Source: Candidatus Latescibacterota bacterium (GTDB taxonomy: Bacteria; Latescibacterota; UBA2968). Taken from it: a stretch of DNA of 64,000 nt. The position numbers and the translations under genes are program-made. Below the pieces are notes generated by a model. That model was not told where the DNA came from. It saw only the letters and a program-made list of their open reading frames with translations, and made no database searches. Positions 49,959 through 61,513 of the stretch are shown piece after piece. The first letter of the stretch is position 1. Every line of letters starts with the position of its first letter. The stretch covers positions 2,048,001 to 2,112,000 of the forward strand of contig OZ240241.1 in assembly GCA_965198115.1 (NCBI GenBank). Direction: 5' to 3'.

Positions 49959-51290
49959 TCACGCGCTTCGTGCCCAGAAGCTCGTCCGATCGTTCAGCTC
50001 GGTTTCCCATCGCGACATCTCACCACGCAGAGCCTTAACGACGTCGGCCTGATCCCGATCTTCGATCAGATTCGTCATTTCCCAAGGATCGGTTTTCAGA
50101 TCGAACAGCTGAGACGTTCGGTTCCCTTCCACTGCGTACTCGATCAGCTTGTGATCCCCACGCTTCGCACTCCGCTGAAACGCCTTGTAGGCGTATAACA
50201 GTGTCTCCCGCACACACTCGGATCCATCCCCCATCGCATTGACCAGACTCTCGCCTTCGACGGAGTCCGGAATCGGAAGGTCGGCCAGATCGAACAACGT
50301 CGGATAGATATCGTTCAGGTAGCAGTACGCCTCCCGGCGCTCGCCCCTCGGAATCCCCGGCCCCCTGAACACCAGAGGAACCCGCACGCTGTGCTCATAG
50401 ACGTTCTGTTTGCCCATCAGACCGTGTTGCCCCACGGCCAGCCCGTTGTCGCCCGCGAACACGACGATCGTATTCTCTCGATGACGCGTTTCTTCCAGCG
50501 TATCTAACAGCCTACCCACCTGTCGATCCAGGTGGGAAATCATCGCGTAATAGTCGGCGAGGTGCTGGCTCACGACCTCGGGCGTTCGGGGAAACGGCGC
50601 CAGTAGCTCGTCCCGCGTCTCCAGATCTCCGTTGTCGAACGGATGTCGCTCAAAACAGTTGGGCGGAAGCTTCAGCTTCTCCGCATCGTAAAGCGCGTGG
50701 AATTCCGGATGCGTATCACGTGGGTCGTGAGGGGCAGTAAACGAGACATACGCGAAAAATGGGGCTTGCCCATCGTAGCTTTTTAGAAAGTCGATCGCCG
50801 CCTCTGAAAACAGATCGCTCGAATGACGCTTGCTTTCTTGATAGATGCCTGCCTCAGCGTAGGTCCCCGATTCGTCGTAGGGATTGAGGGGCACCTTGAA
50901 GTGATCGCTCATTCCACCGAAGAAAATCCGGTCACCGTGGTCGAAGCATCGCGCGAACGCCGGTCGGCCGTTGTGCCACTTTCCCGTCCCGAAGGTCTGA
51001 TACCCGTGATCGCGTAGGGCTTCGGGCATCATGATGTGATTTTCCGGGATCGACTGTCCTTCCCCCTCGAGATGGAAAAGCGTGCGCCCCCGTCATCAGC
51101 ATGGCCCGACTTGGCATGCATACGGCGCCCGACGTCCCCCCATAATGCTGGCCTCGGTGAACATCGTCCCCTCTTCGACCAATCGGTCCAGGTTGGGTGT
51201 AATGACATCGTCGTTCCCGAGCGCGCGAATCGTGTCGTAGCGCTGATCGTCCGTGAACAGAAACAGAATGTTGGGTTTTGAACGGTCCAT
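49959..51290 (-). CDS. Cys-type sulfatase (frameshifts between about 51050 and 51140)
   Basis: [21 protein letters not shown] and GDNG motifs spread across three frames. Confidence 0.85.
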
Positions 51291-51577
51291 CAGTCGCTCT
51301 TCTCGATCTCCCAGCCTGTCAGAAAACTTCGGTCCTCTTCCATCGGCTGACACCAGATCCTCTTCGCCCGAAATCGCACTTCGAATTCGACCATTTCCCC
51401 GCCTCCCGTGTAGGCATCCAGATCATCGATGTCGTCACACCACAGCTGCAGACCCGAGGGACTGATGTCCACGATCTGAACATCCCTGAAGCCTCCACCA
51501 TCGACCTGTGCTTCGACCGGAAGAGCCAACCGCAACCGCGCGTTGCGGCGTTGATCGTTACCCGTTGCTTCTGCCAT
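51290..51577 (-). CDS. PilZ domain protein
   Basis: QRRNAR (RxxxR) and DISPSG (DxSxxG) motifs. Confidence 0.75.
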
Positions 51578-54646: not shown

Positions 54647-54715
54647 TCAGGCATCACGTCCCGCCTCCGCATACTCGATGGGAATCGTGACGATGAATGT
54701 GGAGCCGACACCTAG
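54647..54715 (-). pseudogene. 3' remnant of a histidine kinase, cut at the IS end
   Basis: Reads LGVGSTFIVTIPIEYAEAGRDA*, the typical HATPase C-terminal GxGSTFxVxLP motif; abuts the IS1380 end at 54716. Confidence 0.65.
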
Positions 54716-54735
54716 CCTGAATTATGCATAAAAAA

Positions 54736-56155
54736 GGCTCTATCCGGGTTTCTCAACGGTGAAACTATAGAATGACAAGGTCATAGATCGTTCCCTACGC
54801 TTGGTTGTGTGTGTAGGACAATCAAAGCGAAGGGGGTGCGACCTATGACCGGGAGCAGATTACTATCGAAACTGCTGAGATTCAAGGGGTTCCGTGTTGT
54901 CAGCTGGTGGTTTGAGGGGAGAAGCTGTTTCGTCATCGCCGTAAAGCCACATAAGAATGGTTGTTGTTGTCCGGAGTGCGGCCGTCGAGGTAAAATCGTC
55001 CGCACAATGCCCCATCCGCGTCGGTGGCGTGACATTCCGGTGTGCGGGTGGAGGGTCTGGCTTCTCTACCATCCTCGGGAGATTCGGTGTCCTACCCACG
55101 GTCGTGTGGTCGAGGAGATTCCGTGGGCGGAGCGGTTCTCTCGGGTGACGTATCGCTTCGAGTATGCCATGCTGCGCTACTGCCAGACCATGACGCAGAA
55201 GGCGGCGTCCGAGTTACTGCGCATCTCTGCCTCGACGCTGTCGGATCTCCTTCACCGATCCATCACGCGGCTTCGTGAAGGTCATCGTATCCGAGGGCTC
55301 AAAACCATCGGGATCGACGAGATCTCCTACGCCAAGCGTCACAGGTACGCCACGCTCGTTTACGATCTGGACCGCTCCTGCGTGGTGTGGGTTGGCCGCG
55401 GCAGGGCGCGTAAAACGATCGATCGGTTCTTCACAGAGGCTCTCAGTCCCTACCGGAGATCCAAGATCGAGTGGGCCTGCTGCGACATGAGCGAAGCTTA
55501 CATCGGAGCCATCCAGGAACACTGTCCGAATGCCAAGCTGGTCCTCGATCGCTTTCACATCGTCAAGGCTCTCAATGCCGCCGTTGACGAGGTCCGTAAG
55601 GACCAGTGGCGTAAAGCTGCCCCGGATGAGCGCAAAGCCATGAAGGGCCTCCGATGGCTCCTCTACCGGCACTCAGCGACACGCTCCAGAGGGGATACTC
55701 GGACACTCAAAGCACTGGAGAAGGCGAACTACCGAATCTATAGAGCCTGGAGACTCAAGGACGAGTTCGAGCAGTTCTGGGAATACAAAGCGCCCTGGGC
55801 TGCCGAACGCTTCCTGAAATGCTGGACGACGTCCGCACTCAGAAGTCGACTTGAACCCCTGCGAAAGTTCGTCAGGACCCTGCGACAGCACTTCTTCGGC
55901 GTCCTCGCATTCGTGAACACGCGTCTTACCAACGCCATCGCCGAAGGCCTCAACCGAATCGTCCAAATCGTCAAGAACCGAGCCAGCGGATTCCGCACAC
56001 TCGACGCATTCAACGATATGATCTTCCTTACCGTCGGAGACATAAACATCCCTGAGCAGATTCCGAAGAGGTTCCGCACACGCTAACCGCGCCCCCATGC
56101 CAGGAACCACGGCACCTTCACCCACTTCATCTCGTTGAGAGATCCGGATATAGCC
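54736..56155 (+). mobile_element. ISL3-family insertion sequence
   Basis: Imperfect IRs GGCTCTATCCGGGTTTCTCAACG / CGTTGAGAGATCCGGATATAGCC; flanks ATAAAAAA / ATTAAAAA form an 8-bp direct repeat with one mismatch. Confidence 0.9.
54846..56086 (+). CDS. ISL3 family transposase
   Basis: CPECG zinc finger; IGIDE, CDMS, LDRFH and EGLN motifs. Confidence 0.93.
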
Positions 56156-56242
56156 ATTAAAAAGGTAGTCCCCTTGTACAAGTGTTTGTTTTTCCCTACA
56201 TTTAGGGCTGACACATCAAAACAACACTTGGAAGGAACTACC

Positions 56243-56733
56243 GTGATAGAACCTAGTCAGATCCGGTTACCATTCGCAAGCTTCGGGCAAGGTAGTTGAG
56301 GCTGATTTTGCCGGTGGCGCCGTCAGGAGTGACGGTGGAGTTCTGTTGCTTCGCGCCCTTGAGTCTCAGATGGGATTGATCGCCAGAATGGTAGATGCTT
56401 TGCGAGATCGTCGTCACCCAAGCTATATCGATCACACGCTTTTGGATCTTGTGAAGCAGCGTGTTTTTCAGATCGCTTGCGGCTATGAAGATGCCGTCGA
56501 TTGTGATGATTTGCGCCACGATCCGGGCGTCAAGGCTGCCTGCGATCGGCTTCCTCTTTCCGGTCCTGATCTCGGGAGCCAATCAACGATGACACGACTT
56601 GAGAATGATGTGCGACGCTCGGATTTGTATCGGCTCGCACGGGCTTTTGTAGACGGGTTCATCGCATCGTATGACCAGGCACCCCCAAGCATCATTCTCG
56701 ATATCGACGACACGGATGACCCAACGCACGGTG
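56243..56733 (+). pseudogene. IS1380 transposase 5' fragment
   Basis: SDGGVLLL, QRVFQIACGYED, LRHDP, SQSTMTRLEN and LDIDDTDDPTHG motifs, then similarity stops; frameshift near 56285. Confidence 0.85.
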
Positions 56734-56775
56734 CCGCCCGCGTACTCACACCATGAAGGTCAGAAAGGAATTGTA

Positions 56776-56940
56776 ATGGCGCATCTTCGAAGAATTAATC
56801 GACATAATAACACCAAGAAGAAGAATGGCAACACGCTTTCGTGCGATGACGGGTTCTACTACCCCGCCCCTGCCAAAACCCCCGATCTCAAGTCTGACGA
56901 TCAGGTCCAGGCCAAAGAAGCGAAGAAGAACGTCGCGTAA
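56776..56940 (+). CDS. Putative RiPP precursor peptide (54 aa)
   Basis: AAAGGA RBS; MAHLRRIN resembles the SCIFF leader MKHIKTLN; stop codon is 5 bp before the radical SAM start. Confidence 0.75.
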   Translation: MAHLRRINRHNNTKKKNGNTLSCDDGFYYPAPAKTPDLKSDDQVQAKEAKKNVA

Positions 56941-56945
56941 GGGTA

Positions 56946-58354
56946 ATGCTGAAGAAGTCTGACATCCATCTGTTCGACTACGAAGGCCGCCCAATCGTAC
57001 TTCAGATCCAAACGGGCGATTTCTTCGAAGTCACTCGGCTCGTCGCTGAGATCCTCCGATCGGATGACGGTATCCGTCGCGAGGATCTCGTAGCCGACCT
57101 CTCTCCGAGCCACGGTTTCGAAGCCGTCATCGACGCGCTTTCGGAACTCGAAGCGGCGGACCTGGTCTCGTTCGGCCCAGTCTGCCCGCTCGTCGACTCG
57201 GGGGACGGTGCGGTGGTCCCTCCCACCCGCACGTCCGCCGAGACGATCACGATCACCCTCCACGTTTCGCACGCCTGTAACGTCACCTGCTCGTACTGCT
57301 TTGCACTCGGCGGCGACTATGGCGGGGAACCCAAGCTGATGGCCTGGAAACGGCGAAGCAGACTGTGGATTGGCTGATCGAGGCAACTCGAGATGCGGGT
57401 CGGTGTCAGATCGACTTCTTCGGAGGCGAGCCGCTCCTCCATCTCGGCCTCGTGAAGAAGACCGTGGCTTATGCGCGCCAGCAGGGCGCTGCGAACGGCG
57501 TTGCGGTTTCGTTCGGAATGACGACGAACGGAACCCTCCTATCGGGCGACGCACTCGAGTTCCTGATGGAAGAAGACATTGGAATCATGGTCAGCATCGA
57601 CAGCCCCAAGGAAGTCCACGACGCACAGCGCAGCTTCAATAACGGTGAGTCGACGTACGACATCGTGGCGGCGAACACGACAGAAGCTGCCCGCCGTGCG
57701 CCCGACAAGGTCTTGCTCCGGGCGACGATGACGAATAAAAACCTCGACATGATGGCCCTCGTGGACGAACTCGAGGGTTTCGAGGTCAATTCCGTTGGTG
57801 TCGGACCAGCGTGGCTTTCTCATCATCATCCTACGGCGATTCGGAAAGAGCACCTCCCCGAACTCAGGAAGCACATCCGAACGCTCGCAAACGATGAGCT
57901 GAAGCGTATCAAAGAGGGGCACAAGGCTGAAACATTCGCACCATTGATCAAGAAAGTCTTGTCGGGACAGAAGCGGGAATACGGGTGTGGTGGTGGGAAG
58001 ACCTACTTTGGCGTCGACGTCGATGGCGACATCTATTTCTGCTCGGCCTTCGGCAGCATGCCCGAATACAAAATGGGCGACGTCTGGAAGGGGCTGGACC
58101 CCACGGTGGACGCACGTTTCCGACGCGACTTCCACGTCGACAACAAGAAGACGTGCAGCCAGTGCTGGGCCCGATACCTCTGTGGCGGAGGCTGTGCCTA
58201 CGATGCCAGGGTATCAACCGGCGAACCCACCGAACCCAATCCGGTCGCTTGCGAGCGTACCCGCTACTCGCACGAACTCGCAATGGGAATGGCTCTCGAG
58301 CTGAGCGACCACGCACCGGATGCACTCGACCGCCTCCAGATCGAAAAGGTCTGA
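56946..58354 (+). CDS. RRE-radical SAM-SPASM peptide maturase (CteB/QhpD-like), frameshift near 57347
   Basis: CNVTCSYC, FFGGEP, TTNGT, SID; SPASM CX12GX4C...CX2CX5CX3C...C; N-terminal PqqD/RRE-like domain. Confidence 0.9.
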
Positions 58355-58364
58355 CGGAGATAAA

Positions 58365-59786
58365 ATGAGCAATCAAACACACACGACAAAGACCCCCTTG
58401 CCGATGGCGGAAACCCCAGAAAGTGCCCCCTCTGCGGGTCTAAATGCTTCGGCAAGGGGGCCGAAACGTCTCCCCCACGAGGGTTGGATGTTGGCTCCCC
58501 TCTATGTCGCCGAACATCATCTGTTCGAGCACAATGGTCGCACGCTTCTCTTTGGCGTCGGAACGGCCGACTTCTTCGAGATCGATGATGTCGTCGAGGA
58601 TGTGCTGAAGACAATCGAGGGCACCACACTCATCCAGCTGTTCGAGCGTCTTCGATCCTCTCACGGCGAAAAGGATCTCTACAGCGCAGTCCGCGAACTC
58701 CGTGAGGCCGAGATCGTTTCCGAAGAGCGGCTTGCCCGCCCGACGGCACCGGTCCTTCCCGGTCGTCTCGAAGTTTCGGAAATCGTCCTTGAAGTAACCA
58801 CGGATTCTCTGTCAGCACAGAGCGGGAGTCAGTATCTCCGTCCGGCGACCGGTCGAGAGGCCATCAGACTGTTGATGGAGGAGTCGGGGTGTCTCCGCAC
58901 GTGTTCCCTCACGCTCACGGGAGAGCCACTCCTCAATTCCCAGCTCACACTCGATCTGCTCGATCACGCCATCGAACGCGCCGAGCAGATCGGCAAGCGA
59001 TTGCGCCTGGCCGTCGTCACCAATCCAAGATTGGTGAACGAGCGTATTCGTATCTCGCTGAAGCGTCGTGGTGTCGATCTCGTCATCAACGACACAGCGG
59101 GTACGCTCGAAGGCGTGCACGGCTCGGGACCGGCCAGCCTGCAGAGAAGCGCGCTCACGAGTAGTCCACCCACGCATCTTCGCATCGAATCGGTGGATGA
59201 AACGCCGGTGCACCAGATTCGAGAGGCTTTAGACGAAAATCAAAACCTCGCGACGGTCGATCTCCCACCATCGACACCCGGACACCTCTGTCCTGTCTCC
59301 GAAAGAGATCTCGAAGAACTCAGCGCATTCGTCAGCCAGCACGTCATGTCCTCGAAAATGACCTGGATCGGCCCGATCGAGGACTCGGCGGCTCAAGTCT
59401 TCAACGGCCGCCGCGCCAGCTACGGCGACTCAGCTGGCATCACCAGTCTCGCTGTTGGCTGCGATGGAACGATTTACGTGTCCGAAGAAGTCATCGGAGA
59501 TTCCCGCTACCGGATGGGCCACATCCAGAGTGGGCTCGATCAGGGCCGGCGGGCTCAGTGGATTCGAGAAGCCCACGTCGATGCCCGACCCGGCTGCCAG
59601 ACCTGTTGGGCCCGACATCTCTGCGGTGGCGGGTCGACGGTGGCGGTGGGCAATTGCCCAGATCCCGACTCCGACTACTGCACGATCGTGCGTCGGTCCT
59701 ACGAACTGGCAATGGGTTTATGCGTAGACCTCGACGTGCGAAACCCCGATCTCCTCGAACAACGCTACGGACAGGGTGCTGCGTGA
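58365..59786 (+). CDS. Degenerate RRE-radical SAM-SPASM paralog lacking CxxxCxxC
   Basis: N-terminus aligns with the first maturase (HLFE...TADFFEI); LTGEPLL; CQTCWARHLCGGGS...YC. Confidence 0.82.
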   Translation: MSNQTHTTKTPLPMAETPESAPSAGLNASARGPKRLPHEGWMLAPLYVAEHHLFEHNGRTLLFGVGTADFFEIDDVVEDVLKTIEGTTLIQLFERLRSSHGEKDLYSAVRELREAEIVSEERLARPTAPVLPGRLEVSEIVLEVTTDSLSAQSGSQYLRPATGREAIRLLMEESGCLRTCSLTLTGEPLLNSQLTLDLLDHAIERAEQIGKRLRLAVVTNPRLVNERIRISLKRRGVDLVINDTAGTLEGVHGSGPASLQRSALTSSPPTHLRIESVDETPVHQIREALDENQNLATVDLPPSTPGHLCPVSERDLEELSAFVSQHVMSSKMTWIGPIEDSAAQVFNGRRASYGDSAGITSLAVGCDGTIYVSEEVIGDSRYRMGHIQSGLDQGRRAQWIREAHVDARPGCQTCWARHLCGGGSTVAVGNCPDPDSDYCTIVRRSYELAMGLCVDLDVRNPDLLEQRYGQGAA

Positions 59787-60990
59787 ACATCCTCTTCTAC
59801 CAGGACACGTCGGGAGTCAGCGGGGCGGAGATATGGATCGCCGACGCCGCTCGACGTCTGCGCGAGCGAGGGCACGGGATCAGCCTGTCAGCGCCGACCG
59901 AATCCTGGATAGCTGCCCAAGACCGGCATCACGGATTCCCGCTCGTCGATTTCTTCTCCGGCGATGGATTCGACGCCCATCGGCGGTGGATCCTGGCTGA
60001 ACATCTTTCTGCAGCGAGCGTAGACATCGTGGTGTGCAGCATTCCCGGCGCAAGGATGGAGGTGCCACTCCTAGATCAAGCGATTCGGGATGCGGGACGA
60101 GGTAAAATCCTGATTCGTCTGGGTGTCGCCCCTGGCGAAGGCGCCTTTCCACCCGAACGAGTGGGCTACGGCTACGACACCGTTAGTGGGATCATTGCTG
60201 TCTCCCGCGACGTCAAGCATCATCTCGTCCGCAACTTCCCGATGCTCGACAGAGACAGAATCCACGTCGTCTACAATGGCGTCGACCTCGAGCGATTCGG
60301 TCCAGAAACCCACAGCGACGTCGAACGTGCCTCCCAGCGACGCGACCTGGACATTCCCGCCGACCACCGTGTCGTCGCGGCCGTCGGACGGCTCGATCCG
60401 ATCAAGAATCTGCCTTGCCTGATCGACGCAGCCGACATCGTCCTCGAGCGCTTCCCCGCGACCACCTTCGTCATCGCTGGCGACGGTGCAGAACGCGTCA
60501 CGCTCGAAAAATGCGGTCGTCTCCAAAGGGTTGAGTGACGCCTTTTCGCTTTCCCGGTTTCGTCAAAGATGTCCCTGGACTGTTGTCCATCGTCGACATC
60601 GTCGTGCATCCCTCCCTGTCGGAGGGCGTACCCAACACGCTTTTGGAAGCAATGGCTGCCCAGAAGGCCGTGGTGGCATCCGAGGTCGGTGGAATTTCGG
60701 AGGTCGTCGACAATCCTGAAGTCGGCGTGCTCGTTCCCCCCGCCAGTCCATCGGCTCTGGCCGAGACACTCACATCCCTCGTCGGCAGCGAGGATCGACG
60801 CGCAGGACTGGGCTCGAGGGCCCGAGCGCACGTTCTATCTCACTTTGACCGAGCCACCAACATCAGACAGATCGAAGACCTGTTCGACCAGGTTCTACGA
60901 TCGGCAACACCGCTCGCACCGGCGTCCGAACAGCAGCTATACGATCCACCCTACGCGTTTACTGCGCGTGACCATCTGTTGCGTGCATAG
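59783..60990 (+). CDS. GT4 (GT-B) glycosyltransferase (frameshifts between about 60510 and 60550)
   Basis: SGAE, VYNGVD, VGRLDPIKN, PSLSEGVPNTLLEAMA and VGGISE motifs; GTGA overlap with the upstream gene. Confidence 0.88.
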
Positions 60991-61123
60991 TCTGCCGGCG
61001 GCCGTCGGGTGGGCCGCCGGTGGACCATAGATTGGGAACCCCACAAAAGCTTCAGACGTGCAAAGAGTCGGGCAATCTTCTTCTGGGAGGATGCCCGTTT
61101 GTTTTTGACTAAACAGGCCTTCA

Positions 61124-61513
61124 ATGCCGAAGATTCTCCTCATCGACGACGAACCTGACGTGCGACACGTCACGCGGGAGTGCCTGTCAACCAAGGGCTT
61201 CGAGGTCGATATCCCGGCCGTCGAAGACTCGGCCATATCCCGCTCGACCGTTCAAGCGGCCACGACGGACGGATACGATCTGATCATTCTCGATCTCCGA
61301 CTCCCACACCTGGACCCGTTCGATCTGATTCGATCCGTAAACGAATCAGAGGGTCCGCCGATCATGGTTCTGGCCGGTTTTCTGTCGCTGGAGCTCGAGA
61401 GCAGCCTGCGAGCAGCCGGAGTCCATTCGTTCACGACCAAACCGTTTACATTTTCGGATCTCCTGTCCTCGGTCGAAGAGTGCATGGCATCATCGGTGGC
61501 CGTCCGTATTTGA
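61124..61513 (+). CDS. Single-domain response regulator
   Basis: ILLIDDE, ILDLRLP and TKPF motifs. Confidence 0.85.
   Translation: MPKILLIDDEPDVRHVTRECLSTKGFEVDIPAVEDSAISRSTVQAATTDGYDLIILDLRLPHLDPFDLIRSVNESEGPPIMVLAGFLSLELESSLRAAGVHSFTTKPFTFSDLLSSVEECMASSVAVRI

What the first reader, a model, noticed from the sequence alone, without database searches (positions are those of the whole stretch)
56762..60990. Candidate new RiPP system: single-Cys precursor, radical SAM/SPASM maturase, inactive paralog and glycosyltransferase
Seen: four co-oriented genes with gaps of 5 bp, 10 bp and a GTGA overlap. Known: RRE-radical SAM-SPASM enzymes (CteB, QhpD, PapB) cross-link peptides encoded next to them. 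Inference: the operon makes a cross-linked and possibly glycosylated peptide. I do not know a described family that combines a maturase, a pseudo-enzyme and a GT4. No protease or exporter is adjacent, so the product could be an intracellular modified peptide or a peptide-derived cofactor (mycofactocin is the precedent for radical SAM plus glycosylation, though it uses a GT2).
Basis: partly seen in the sequence, partly recalled or inferred. Interest (0 to 1): 0.92.

Follow-up and report, generated by a model that had tools for sequence, protein, structure and literature searches.

The report
Dead radical-SAM partner for peptide glycosyltransferase
This is a conserved four-gene bacterial cluster in which one enzyme likely cross-links a small peptide, and a catalytically dead copy of that enzyme is predicted to bind a sugar-transferring enzyme and would hand it the peptide; the copy in this genome carries frameshifts and has likely stopped working.

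Summary
The four genes and their spacings are as described. The arrangement recurs in relatives titled Latescibacterota: 8 of 8 loci with the pseudo-enzyme have the same GT4 directly behind it, and a matching small-peptide gene precedes the maturase in 40 of 44 related loci. The maturase is CteB/PapB-like (RRE, CxxxCxxC, seven-Cys SPASM) but scores below all five closest named families' cut-offs. A single Cys thioether is inferred, not shown.

The second copy forms one clade, lacks CxxxCxxC, keeps the RRE and four AuxII cysteines, and is under purifying selection (dN/dS 0.10-0.20). A complex model supports pseudo-enzyme-GT4 binding (score 0.65, best control 0.00). Two relatives carry an RRE-GT9 fusion inside the operon. 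Best reading: the dead enzyme lends its peptide-binding domain to the GT4.

Two corrections. (1) This copy is probably a pseudogene cluster: both frameshifts are in run contigs, essential genes have none, and an IS junction removed the promoter and regulator. (2) The architecture has a precedent, the GG-Bacteroidales families, though these proteins are not members.

The parts
54712..56734 (+). Composite insertion sequence: ISL3 (transposase 54809-56086) followed by an IS1380-family transposase cut off at 56734. It stands where relatives have the kinase/sigma-54 activator and the sigma-54 promoter.
   Evidence: Pfam. At least five other genome copies of most of the composite at 99% or more; four of them continue into IS1380 where this one stops. 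223 near-full ISL3 copies in the genome. Junction lies inside run contigs.
56762..56772 (+). Ribosome-binding site of the precursor gene
   Evidence: sequence
56776..56940 (+). Precursor peptide, 54 aa (P0001): leader motif HLxxIN, one Cys in LSC, variable core, basic tail
   Evidence: no Pfam or NCBIfam family
56946..58354 (+). RRE-radical SAM-SPASM maturase with CxxxCxxC (57276-57299) and seven SPASM cysteines; broken by a one-base frameshift at 57346-57347
   Evidence: continuous across this point in 85%-identical relatives P0067, P0149 and P0150
58365..59786 (+). Pseudo-radical SAM paralog (P0004, open frame). Keeps the RRE, the barrel and four AuxII-type Cys; lacks CxxxCxxC and, in this lineage, all three AuxI-type Cys. 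Predicted partner of the GT4.
59783..60990 (+). GT4 (GT-B) glycosyltransferase of a cluster-specific clade, with ExxxxxxxE motif and C-terminal tail; frame broken (net +2 bases) at about 60506-60546

Best explanation
This is a likely broken copy of a conserved peptide-modification operon in which the radical SAM enzyme would close one cysteine thioether ring in the small peptide, and the catalytically dead paralog is predicted to bind the GT4 and would present the peptide to it for glycosylation. Step 1 (shown): gene order, motifs and conservation. Step 2 (inferred from CteB/PapB likeness, about 0.75): the maturase RRE binds the LxxIN leader, the open AuxI site binds the single Cys, and an S-C bond (-2 Da) forms; the acceptor residue and carbon are unknown. 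Step 3 (predicted, about 0.7): the pseudo-enzyme and GT4 form a complex. Step 4 (inferred, about 0.55): the pseudo-enzyme's RRE and barrel hold the peptide so that the RRE-less GT4 adds a sugar. The Ser before the Cys is a candidate site, present in 5 of 6 GT4-cluster precursors read. Step 5 (inferred, about 0.3): in intact relatives the operon is driven by the adjacent kinase-AAA-TPR-GAF-sigma-54 activator, and the variable peptide may be a signal matched to it. Step 6 (about 0.85): in this genome two frameshifted genes and a lost promoter make the copy non-functional.
For: Linkage: the GT4 ortholog directly follows the pseudo-enzyme in 8 of 8 loci with DNA context (G000, G003, G006, G009, G037, G077, G079, L063; in G006 only 25 codons remain before the contig end). 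Of 168 phylum genomes, 7 hold the GT4 ortholog; 6 have it behind the pseudo-enzyme and the seventh (G001) is a deleted remnant. 38 of the 40 loci have a maturase but no second copy, so the maturase occurs without it. G079 has an RRE-GT9 fusion between maturase and pseudo-enzyme, truncated in G077, which ties a glycosyltransferase to the peptide. Pseudo-enzyme: 15 of 15 rows in one clade, SH-aLRT 96; dN/dS 0.10-0.20, against 0.06-0.16 for the maturase and 0.06 for the GT4; CteB fold, E 7.6e-22, TM 0.74. Complex model of the G009 pair: score 0.65, best of 3 controls 0.00. That mark was reached by 116 of 157 solved and 2 of 215 mismatched pairs; runs agree in at least 49% of contacts; partner pLDDT at least 86. 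The interface includes P110, E114, G154 and K191, invariant in 21 of 21 pseudo-enzymes; the PxxxE motif is not seen in the active maturases aligned. Maturase: best solved relative is CteB, E 3e-61, same seven SPASM Cys; CteB's open site binds the peptide Cys (PMC8172795, passages). Decay.
Against: No chemistry was tested. The complex controls were unrelated proteins; the active maturase was not tested as a GT4 partner, the peptide was not in the model, and the calibration counts hold only roughly with my own alignments. The GT4 side of the interface is less conserved than the GT4 average (0.51 vs 0.61); the pseudo-enzyme side is only slightly more conserved (0.60 vs 0.52). The listed interface does not involve the RRE. 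L049 has a different GT4 directly after the maturase with no second copy, so not every GT4 near this family needs a partner. Catalytic-proximity positions 5-6 are S-A or S-S, not CteB's H-Q, and no acceptor residue is conserved at a fixed distance from the Cys. The loci are kin and not independent. No shared protease or exporter was recognised beside these loci (not all neighbours were family-scanned).
Confidence: 0.5

Rival explanations
1. The pseudo-enzyme serves the active maturase (heterodimer, second leader-binding site, or electron relay through its retained cluster), and the GT4 works on its own.
For: The two are paralogs and adjacent in most loci. Four AuxII-type Cys are invariant in 21 of 21 pseudo-enzymes.
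Against: The maturase stands without a second copy in 38 of the 40 loci. In G077 and G079 another gene separates maturase and pseudo-enzyme, while pseudo-enzyme and GT4 stay adjacent. The complex model supports GT4 binding. The heterodimer itself was not modelled.
Confidence: 0.15
2. The pseudo-enzyme and GT4 form a complex, but the sugar goes on something other than the peptide (a protein, a lipid or a small molecule).
For: The best NCBIfam matches of the GT4 are envelope and thiol-biosynthesis enzymes, all far below cut-off. Other polysaccharide-type genes lie nearby in G028 and G077. No acceptor residue is invariant.
Against: The GT4 clade is tight (30 proteins at 286 bits or more, next at 153) and tied to this operon. 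The RRE-GT9 fusion in the same operon. The RRE is retained in the partner.
Confidence: 0.17
3. The operon logic is right but the maturase makes a different bond: sulfur to alpha carbon, sulfur to an aromatic ring, or a C-C or C-O link.
For: Two of six catalytic-proximity residues differ from CteB. Cores are rich in aromatic residues and Pro and lack a fixed Asp, Glu or Thr acceptor. GggB and QmpB resemble ranthisynthases yet make alpha links (PMC10288494, section 7).
Against: Four of six residues match CteB. The five best NCBIfam families are the SCIFF, PapB, QhpD, nif11-like and ScfB-related maturases. One core Cys is kept throughout.
Confidence: 0.2
4. The frameshifts are sequencing errors and this genome's copy is functional.
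For: All the breaks lie in short single-base runs. The platform of the runs is not on record, and runs X1 and X2 are one sample that may be the assembly's source. The pseudo-enzyme and peptide frames are open.
Against: Contigs of both runs match 56705-61300 with 0 gaps. 0 of 39 essential genes (26,850 bases) change frame, where 13-19 indels would be expected at the operon's rate. Run contigs agree with the assembly there too. The promoter is lost at an IS junction. Same-genus G001 keeps only a deleted GT4, and an 85%-identical sister lineage has other lesions.
Confidence: 0.1
5. The product is a mycofactocin-like redox cofactor.
For: Radical SAM plus glycosyltransferase, and no exporter beside it.
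Against: Variable core. MftC model score 69.6 against a cut-off of 265. GT4 rather than MftF's GT2 (recalled). No shared dehydrogenase, peptidase or creatininase neighbours seen.
Confidence: 0.03

Closest known systems
Ranthipeptide maturases CteB/SCIFF (TIGR03974), PapB/freyrasin (NF047865), QhpD (TIGR03906)
   Same: RRE + CxxxCxxC barrel + seven-Cys SPASM; adjacent Cys-containing substrate; 4 of 6 catalytic-proximity residues; best sequence and fold match is CteB.
   Different: Scores 279.7/425, 276.2/340 and 268.2/453 are below cut-off. One Cys instead of six, no CX3D rule, S-A instead of H-Q after the AuxI Cys, plus a pseudo-enzyme and GT4.
GG-Bacteroidales peptide system (TIGR04148 maturase, TIGR04149 peptide, TIGR04150 pseudo_rSAM_GG, TIGR04157 glyco_rSAM_CFB)
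   Same: Same kind of parts: maturase, peptide, pseudo-rSAM and a GT4-type enzyme. Family names seen. The cassette of 04148/04149/04150 was read in passages of PMC4573289. That TIGR04157 belongs to the same cassettes is recalled.
   Different: No model reaches cut-off (04148: 92.3/300; 04157: 67.6/400; 04150: no match to P0004). No double-glycine leader, no ABC exporter, different phylum. The pseudo-enzyme here groups with its own maturase family, so the design probably arose separately.
RRE-glycosyltransferase fusions reported by RRE-Finder surveys
   Same: PMC7470986 and PMC12710340 (passages) report uncharacterised RRE-GT fusions; G079 has an RRE-GT9 fusion in this operon.
   Different: In the window the GT4 has no RRE; the RRE would be supplied in trans by a whole dead radical SAM protein.
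Mycofactocin (MftA, MftC, MftF)
   Same: Radical SAM-SPASM enzyme plus glycosyltransferase acting on a peptide-derived product.
   Different: Invariant two-residue core and GT2 enzyme (recalled) versus a variable Cys core and GT4; model score far below cut-off.
GtfA/GtfB serine-rich protein O-glycosyltransferase (recalled, not tested)
   Same: A GT-B enzyme that needs a catalytically dead partner to recognise its polypeptide substrate.
   Different: There the dead partner is a glycosyltransferase paralog; here it is a radical SAM paralog.

Membership tests
Ranthipeptides (class) | RRE-radical SAM-SPASM enzyme of the CteB/PapB/QhpD type | tested here: met
   (intact ortholog L063; the window gene is frameshifted)
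Ranthipeptides (class) | Adjacent precursor with conserved donor Cys | tested here: met
   40 of 44 related loci; 29 of those 40 have exactly one Cys
Ranthipeptides (class) | Thioether from Cys sulfur to a beta or gamma carbon | not testable with these tools
   needs biochemistry; proximity residues 5-6 differ from CteB
SCIFF/CteB, freyrasin/PapB, QhpD (named families) | Curated HMM cut-off | tested here: not met
   279.7/425, 276.2/340, 268.2/453
SCIFF/CteB, freyrasin/PapB, QhpD (named families) | Six-Cys or repeated CX3D substrate | tested here: not met
   PapB CX3D rule from PMC8172795 passages
GG-Bacteroidales system | TIGR04148 maturase above cut-off | tested here: not met
   92.3 of 300
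GG-Bacteroidales system | TIGR04150 pseudo-rSAM | tested here: not met
   no match at the pseudo-enzyme in the own genome; absent from the P0004 list
GG-Bacteroidales system | TIGR04157 glycosyltransferase above cut-off | tested here: not met
   67.6 of 400
GG-Bacteroidales system | TIGR04149 double-glycine-leader peptide | tested here: not met
   no NCBIfam match for P0001 or four related precursors
Mycofactocin | MftC above cut-off and invariant core | tested here: not met
   69.6 of 265; variable core
His-Xaa-Ser paired radical SAM system | HxsB above cut-off | tested here: not met
   113.5 of 370

The most novel reading that the evidence does not exclude
A new kind of two-subunit peptide glycosyltransferase: a duplicated radical SAM-SPASM maturase lost its catalytic cluster and was kept as the substrate-binding subunit of a GT4, giving a glycosylated single-ring thioether peptide. 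Pseudo-radical SAM proteins in other peptide clusters (TIGR04150; the peptidase-fused P0212) would be adaptors of the same kind.
Probability: 0.45. Interest if true: 0.82.

Novelty: new variant of a known kind. Interest (0 to 1): 0.62.

Why it matters
Radical SAM proteins that lack the catalytic motif are listed in several peptide clusters, and I found no paper assigning them a role (searches; limited library). This family gives a specific, cheap test: a small intact gene set, a predicted interface with named residues, a natural control (maturase-only loci) and a natural fusion (RRE-GT9). If right, it adds a glycosylated thioether peptide family from an uncultured phylum and a leader-directed glycosyltransferase that could be useful for peptide engineering. 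In practice, work should use the intact relatives and not this genome's copy.

Tried and rejected
Programmed frameshifting: rejected, because relatives are continuous at both breaks.

Pseudo-enzyme as a freshly decaying duplicate: rejected (one clade, dN/dS 0.10-0.20).

Finding the upstream activator elsewhere in the own genome: only generic sigma-54 activators at 41-47% identity, no clear ortholog.

Metagenome scan with the pseudo-enzyme alignment: only the top locus (L063) of 78 was a clear ortholog; the rest scored as distant radical SAM proteins and were not followed.

ISL3 copies as an error gauge: 159 of 223 copies have no rare indel, which was not decisive alone.

Sequencing runs: no RNA holder listed, so nothing on expression. 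Run X3 does not bridge either break.

GT4 profile hits in G049, G050 and a second G079 contig (253-273 bits) were dropped from the ortholog count. Only G049 was inspected; it is a 1151-aa multi-GT protein without the cluster.

ESM Atlas gave only generic radical SAM clusters. Three look-ups of earlier scan findings returned nothing.

Paper searches gave 0 papers; others listed nothing on this family (listings only). Grove 2017 and Haft and Basu 2011 were not held. Supplement searches of three papers found no Latescibacterota entry; two picture files of PMC7470986 could not be searched, and its Fig. S7 clusters were not checked, which may bear on novelty.

Not tried: a maturase-pseudo-enzyme model, a peptide-RRE model, RODEO, antiSMASH.
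Full report
OBSERVATION. The 54-aa peptide has one Cys. The first large gene has an N-terminal RRE-like region, CxxxCxxC and a SPASM domain, and is split by a one-base frameshift at 57346-57347. The second is an open 473-aa paralog with no CxxxCxxC. The GT4 is split by a net +2-base break near 60506-60546. The genome is one 8.43-Mb contig. Its closest named relatives are titled Candidatus Latescibacterota in 37 of the 40 loci or its synonym; the phylum is inferred from that.

CONSERVATION. An alignment of the paralog searched against 168 genomes of the phylum matched 25 at E 1e-40 or better, mostly through active maturases. True orthologs lacking CxxxCxxC are in 7 genomes (G000, G003, G006, G009, G037, G077, G079), and one metagenome contig (L063) adds an eighth locus. 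In 8 of 8 the same GT4 follows directly; in G006 only 25 codons remain before the contig ends. Six of the eight show all four genes; the G003 and G009 contigs start inside the cluster. The GT4 forms a distinct clade (30 proteins at 286 bits or more, next at 153). Its profile finds 7 ortholog loci among the 168 genomes: 6 behind the pseudo-enzyme, and one deleted remnant in same-genus G001. Three lower hits were dropped; one of them was inspected. The other 38 of the 40 loci have peptide and maturase but no second copy in 37 cases... more exactly, 2 of the 40 (L039, L054) have a second copy and 38 do not. All these loci are kin and are not independent samples.

THE PEPTIDE. G006 and L063 encode 55- and 56-aa peptides with the same HLxxINR start and LSC motif as the window; G079 has a longer relative. 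A pattern LxxIN...C lies upstream of the maturase in 40 of 44 related loci and in 1.45% of random stretches. The pattern was made from these peptides, so it shows consistency, not independent proof. The four misses are a contig edge, two leader variants and one frameshifted precursor (G077). 29 of the 40 have exactly one Cys. The residues after the Cys vary strongly, even between paralogous loci of one genome. No acceptor residue sits at a fixed distance. A Ser precedes the Cys in 5 of 6 precursors from GT4 clusters; G037 is the exception.

REGULATION. In relatives a kinase-AAA-TPR-GAF-sigma-54 activator of about 1,600 aa lies upstream. A sigma-54-type site precedes the peptide in 42 of 44 loci; 18% of random stretches have such a site, but here the sites cluster shortly upstream of the peptide start.

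THE MATURASE. The intact ortholog's best solved relative is CteB (E 3e-61), with the same seven SPASM cysteines. A review states that one CteB auxiliary cluster has an open site bound by the peptide Cys (PMC8172795, passages). The assignment of three Cys to AuxI and four to AuxII follows that review's RumMC2 passage and my recall of CteB. Of six catalytic-proximity residues defined in PMC10288494 (passages and section 7; CteB F, F, T, S, H, Q), this family has F, F, T, S, S, A/S. It scores below every listed family cut-off among the 25 best NCBIfam matches. A single Cys thioether is the likeliest reaction; the linkage type is open.

THE PSEUDO-ENZYME. All 15 motif-less rows form one clade (SH-aLRT 96). 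G028's second copy, which keeps CxxxCxxC but has lost AuxII cysteines, is its sister. This is a quick tree with long branches, and the branch joining this clade to the cognate maturases is very short, so an origin by duplication is likely but not firmly shown. Loss was stepwise: G037, G077 and G079 keep the SPASM cysteines of both clusters, while the window's lineage keeps only the four AuxII-type ones, which are invariant in 21 of 21. dN/dS is 0.10-0.20 in four pairs, close to the maturase (0.06-0.16) and the GT4 (0.06); distant pairs approach saturation. The predicted structure (mean pLDDT 84) matches CteB along its length. It is a maintained protein that cannot make the radical.

WHAT IT DOES. 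Three lines point to the GT4. First, the strict linkage. Second, G079 carries a gene between maturase and pseudo-enzyme that fuses an RRE (hhalign probability 97 to the pseudo-enzyme's N-terminus) to a GT9 domain; G077 has it truncated. A glycosyltransferase in this operon thus has its own peptide-binding domain, whereas the GT4 has none. Third, a complex model of the intact G009 pair scored 0.65 against a best control of 0.00. That mark was reached by 116 of 157 solved complexes and 2 of 215 mismatched pairs; runs agree in at least 49% of contacts and partner pLDDT is at least 86. The model supports binding and does not show it. The controls were unrelated proteins, and the counts hold only roughly for my alignments. 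The interface uses the pseudo-enzyme's PxxxE linker, residues 154-160, 190-194 and 324-351, and the GT4's 55-70 segment and C-terminal tail. The conservation check was mixed: 0.60 versus 0.52 on the pseudo-enzyme side, 0.51 versus 0.61 on the GT4 side. Against generality, L049 has a different GT4 directly after the maturase without any second copy. Peptide delivery and peptide glycosylation remain inferences.

STATE OF THIS COPY. A composite ISL3/IS1380 element ends abruptly at 56734, 41 bases before the peptide start. Four other copies continue into the transposase there, so this is a deletion junction, and the promoter and activator seen in relatives are missing. Contigs from two runs of one sample match 56705-61300 with no gap or substitution, including both breaks. 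In the same assembly, 0 of 39 ribosomal and transcription genes (26,850 bases) change frame, against 13-19 indels expected at the operon's rate. Neighbouring accessory genes do change frame. Run contigs agree with the assembly over that control region too, so the clean essential genes are not a polishing effect. G001 retains only an IS-interrupted, internally deleted GT4. Assemblies of an 85%-identical sister lineage carry other lesions. The genome holds 223 near-full ISL3 copies. The platform of the runs is not on record and they may be the assembly's source, so shared error cannot be fully excluded; I put real decay at about 0.85.

COMPARISON WITH KNOWN SYSTEMS. It works like a ranthipeptide system but is not a member of the SCIFF, PapB or QhpD families. 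None of those models is met here. RRE-glycosyltransferase fusions have been noted but not characterised (PMC7470986 and PMC12710340, passages). The bioRxiv paper (passages) did not bear on the question. Ten literature searches (listings only unless stated) showed no description of this family. The library lacks most subscription journals, and picture supplements could not be read.

VERDICT. A real, conserved and apparently undescribed variant of radical SAM peptide clusters, with a testable role for the dead paralog as partner of the glycosyltransferase. The window holds a probably decayed copy. Interest 0.62; new variant of a known kind.

Noticed in passing
L016-L055, e.g. L017 2268-8990: Many related genomes carry one to three paralogous modules of kinase-AAA-TPR-GAF-sigma-54 activator, sigma-54-type promoter, single-Cys variable peptide with an acidic tail, and maturase, without pseudo-enzyme or GT4. 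Possibly matched signal-sensor pairs.
   Followed up: partly
L142 4166-6160; L141 9045-10409 (minus strand): RRE fused to a GT9 (heptosyltransferase-like) domain inside the operon; truncated in G077.
   Followed up: partly
protein P0212: Another RRE-radical SAM-SPASM protein without CxxxCxxC, fused to a C-terminal peptidase S24-like domain; fits the idea of dead radical SAM proteins as platforms for other enzymes.
   Followed up: no
proteins P0213, P0265, P0303, P0321, P0323, P0330: Radical SAM proteins with an N-terminal extension of about 300 aa; weak isoprenoid-synthase-like Pfam hits in 3 of the 6. Possibly peptide prenylation.
   Followed up: no
L060 6897-8378 (G028): Second maturase copy that keeps CxxxCxxC but has lost the AuxII cysteines, followed by a different GT4.
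   Followed up: partly
L020 9170-10078, L025 9030-9938 and others: An unknown ORF of about 300 aa follows the maturase-only module in several loci; no Pfam match for the two scanned.
   Followed up: partly
window 54712-56734 and genome-wide: 223 near-full ISL3 copies and a repeated ISL3-IS1380 composite; frameshifted accessory genes beside a clean ribosomal block suggest a genome in IS expansion and decay.
   Followed up: partly
window 49959-51353 (minus strand): A sulfatase gene that appears split over three frames.
   Followed up: no
L059 10975-15239 (G037): Downstream of the GT4: a CAAX-type protease, a 73-aa Cys/Ser-rich ORF and a ThiF-like gene, possibly a second peptide cluster.
   Followed up: no
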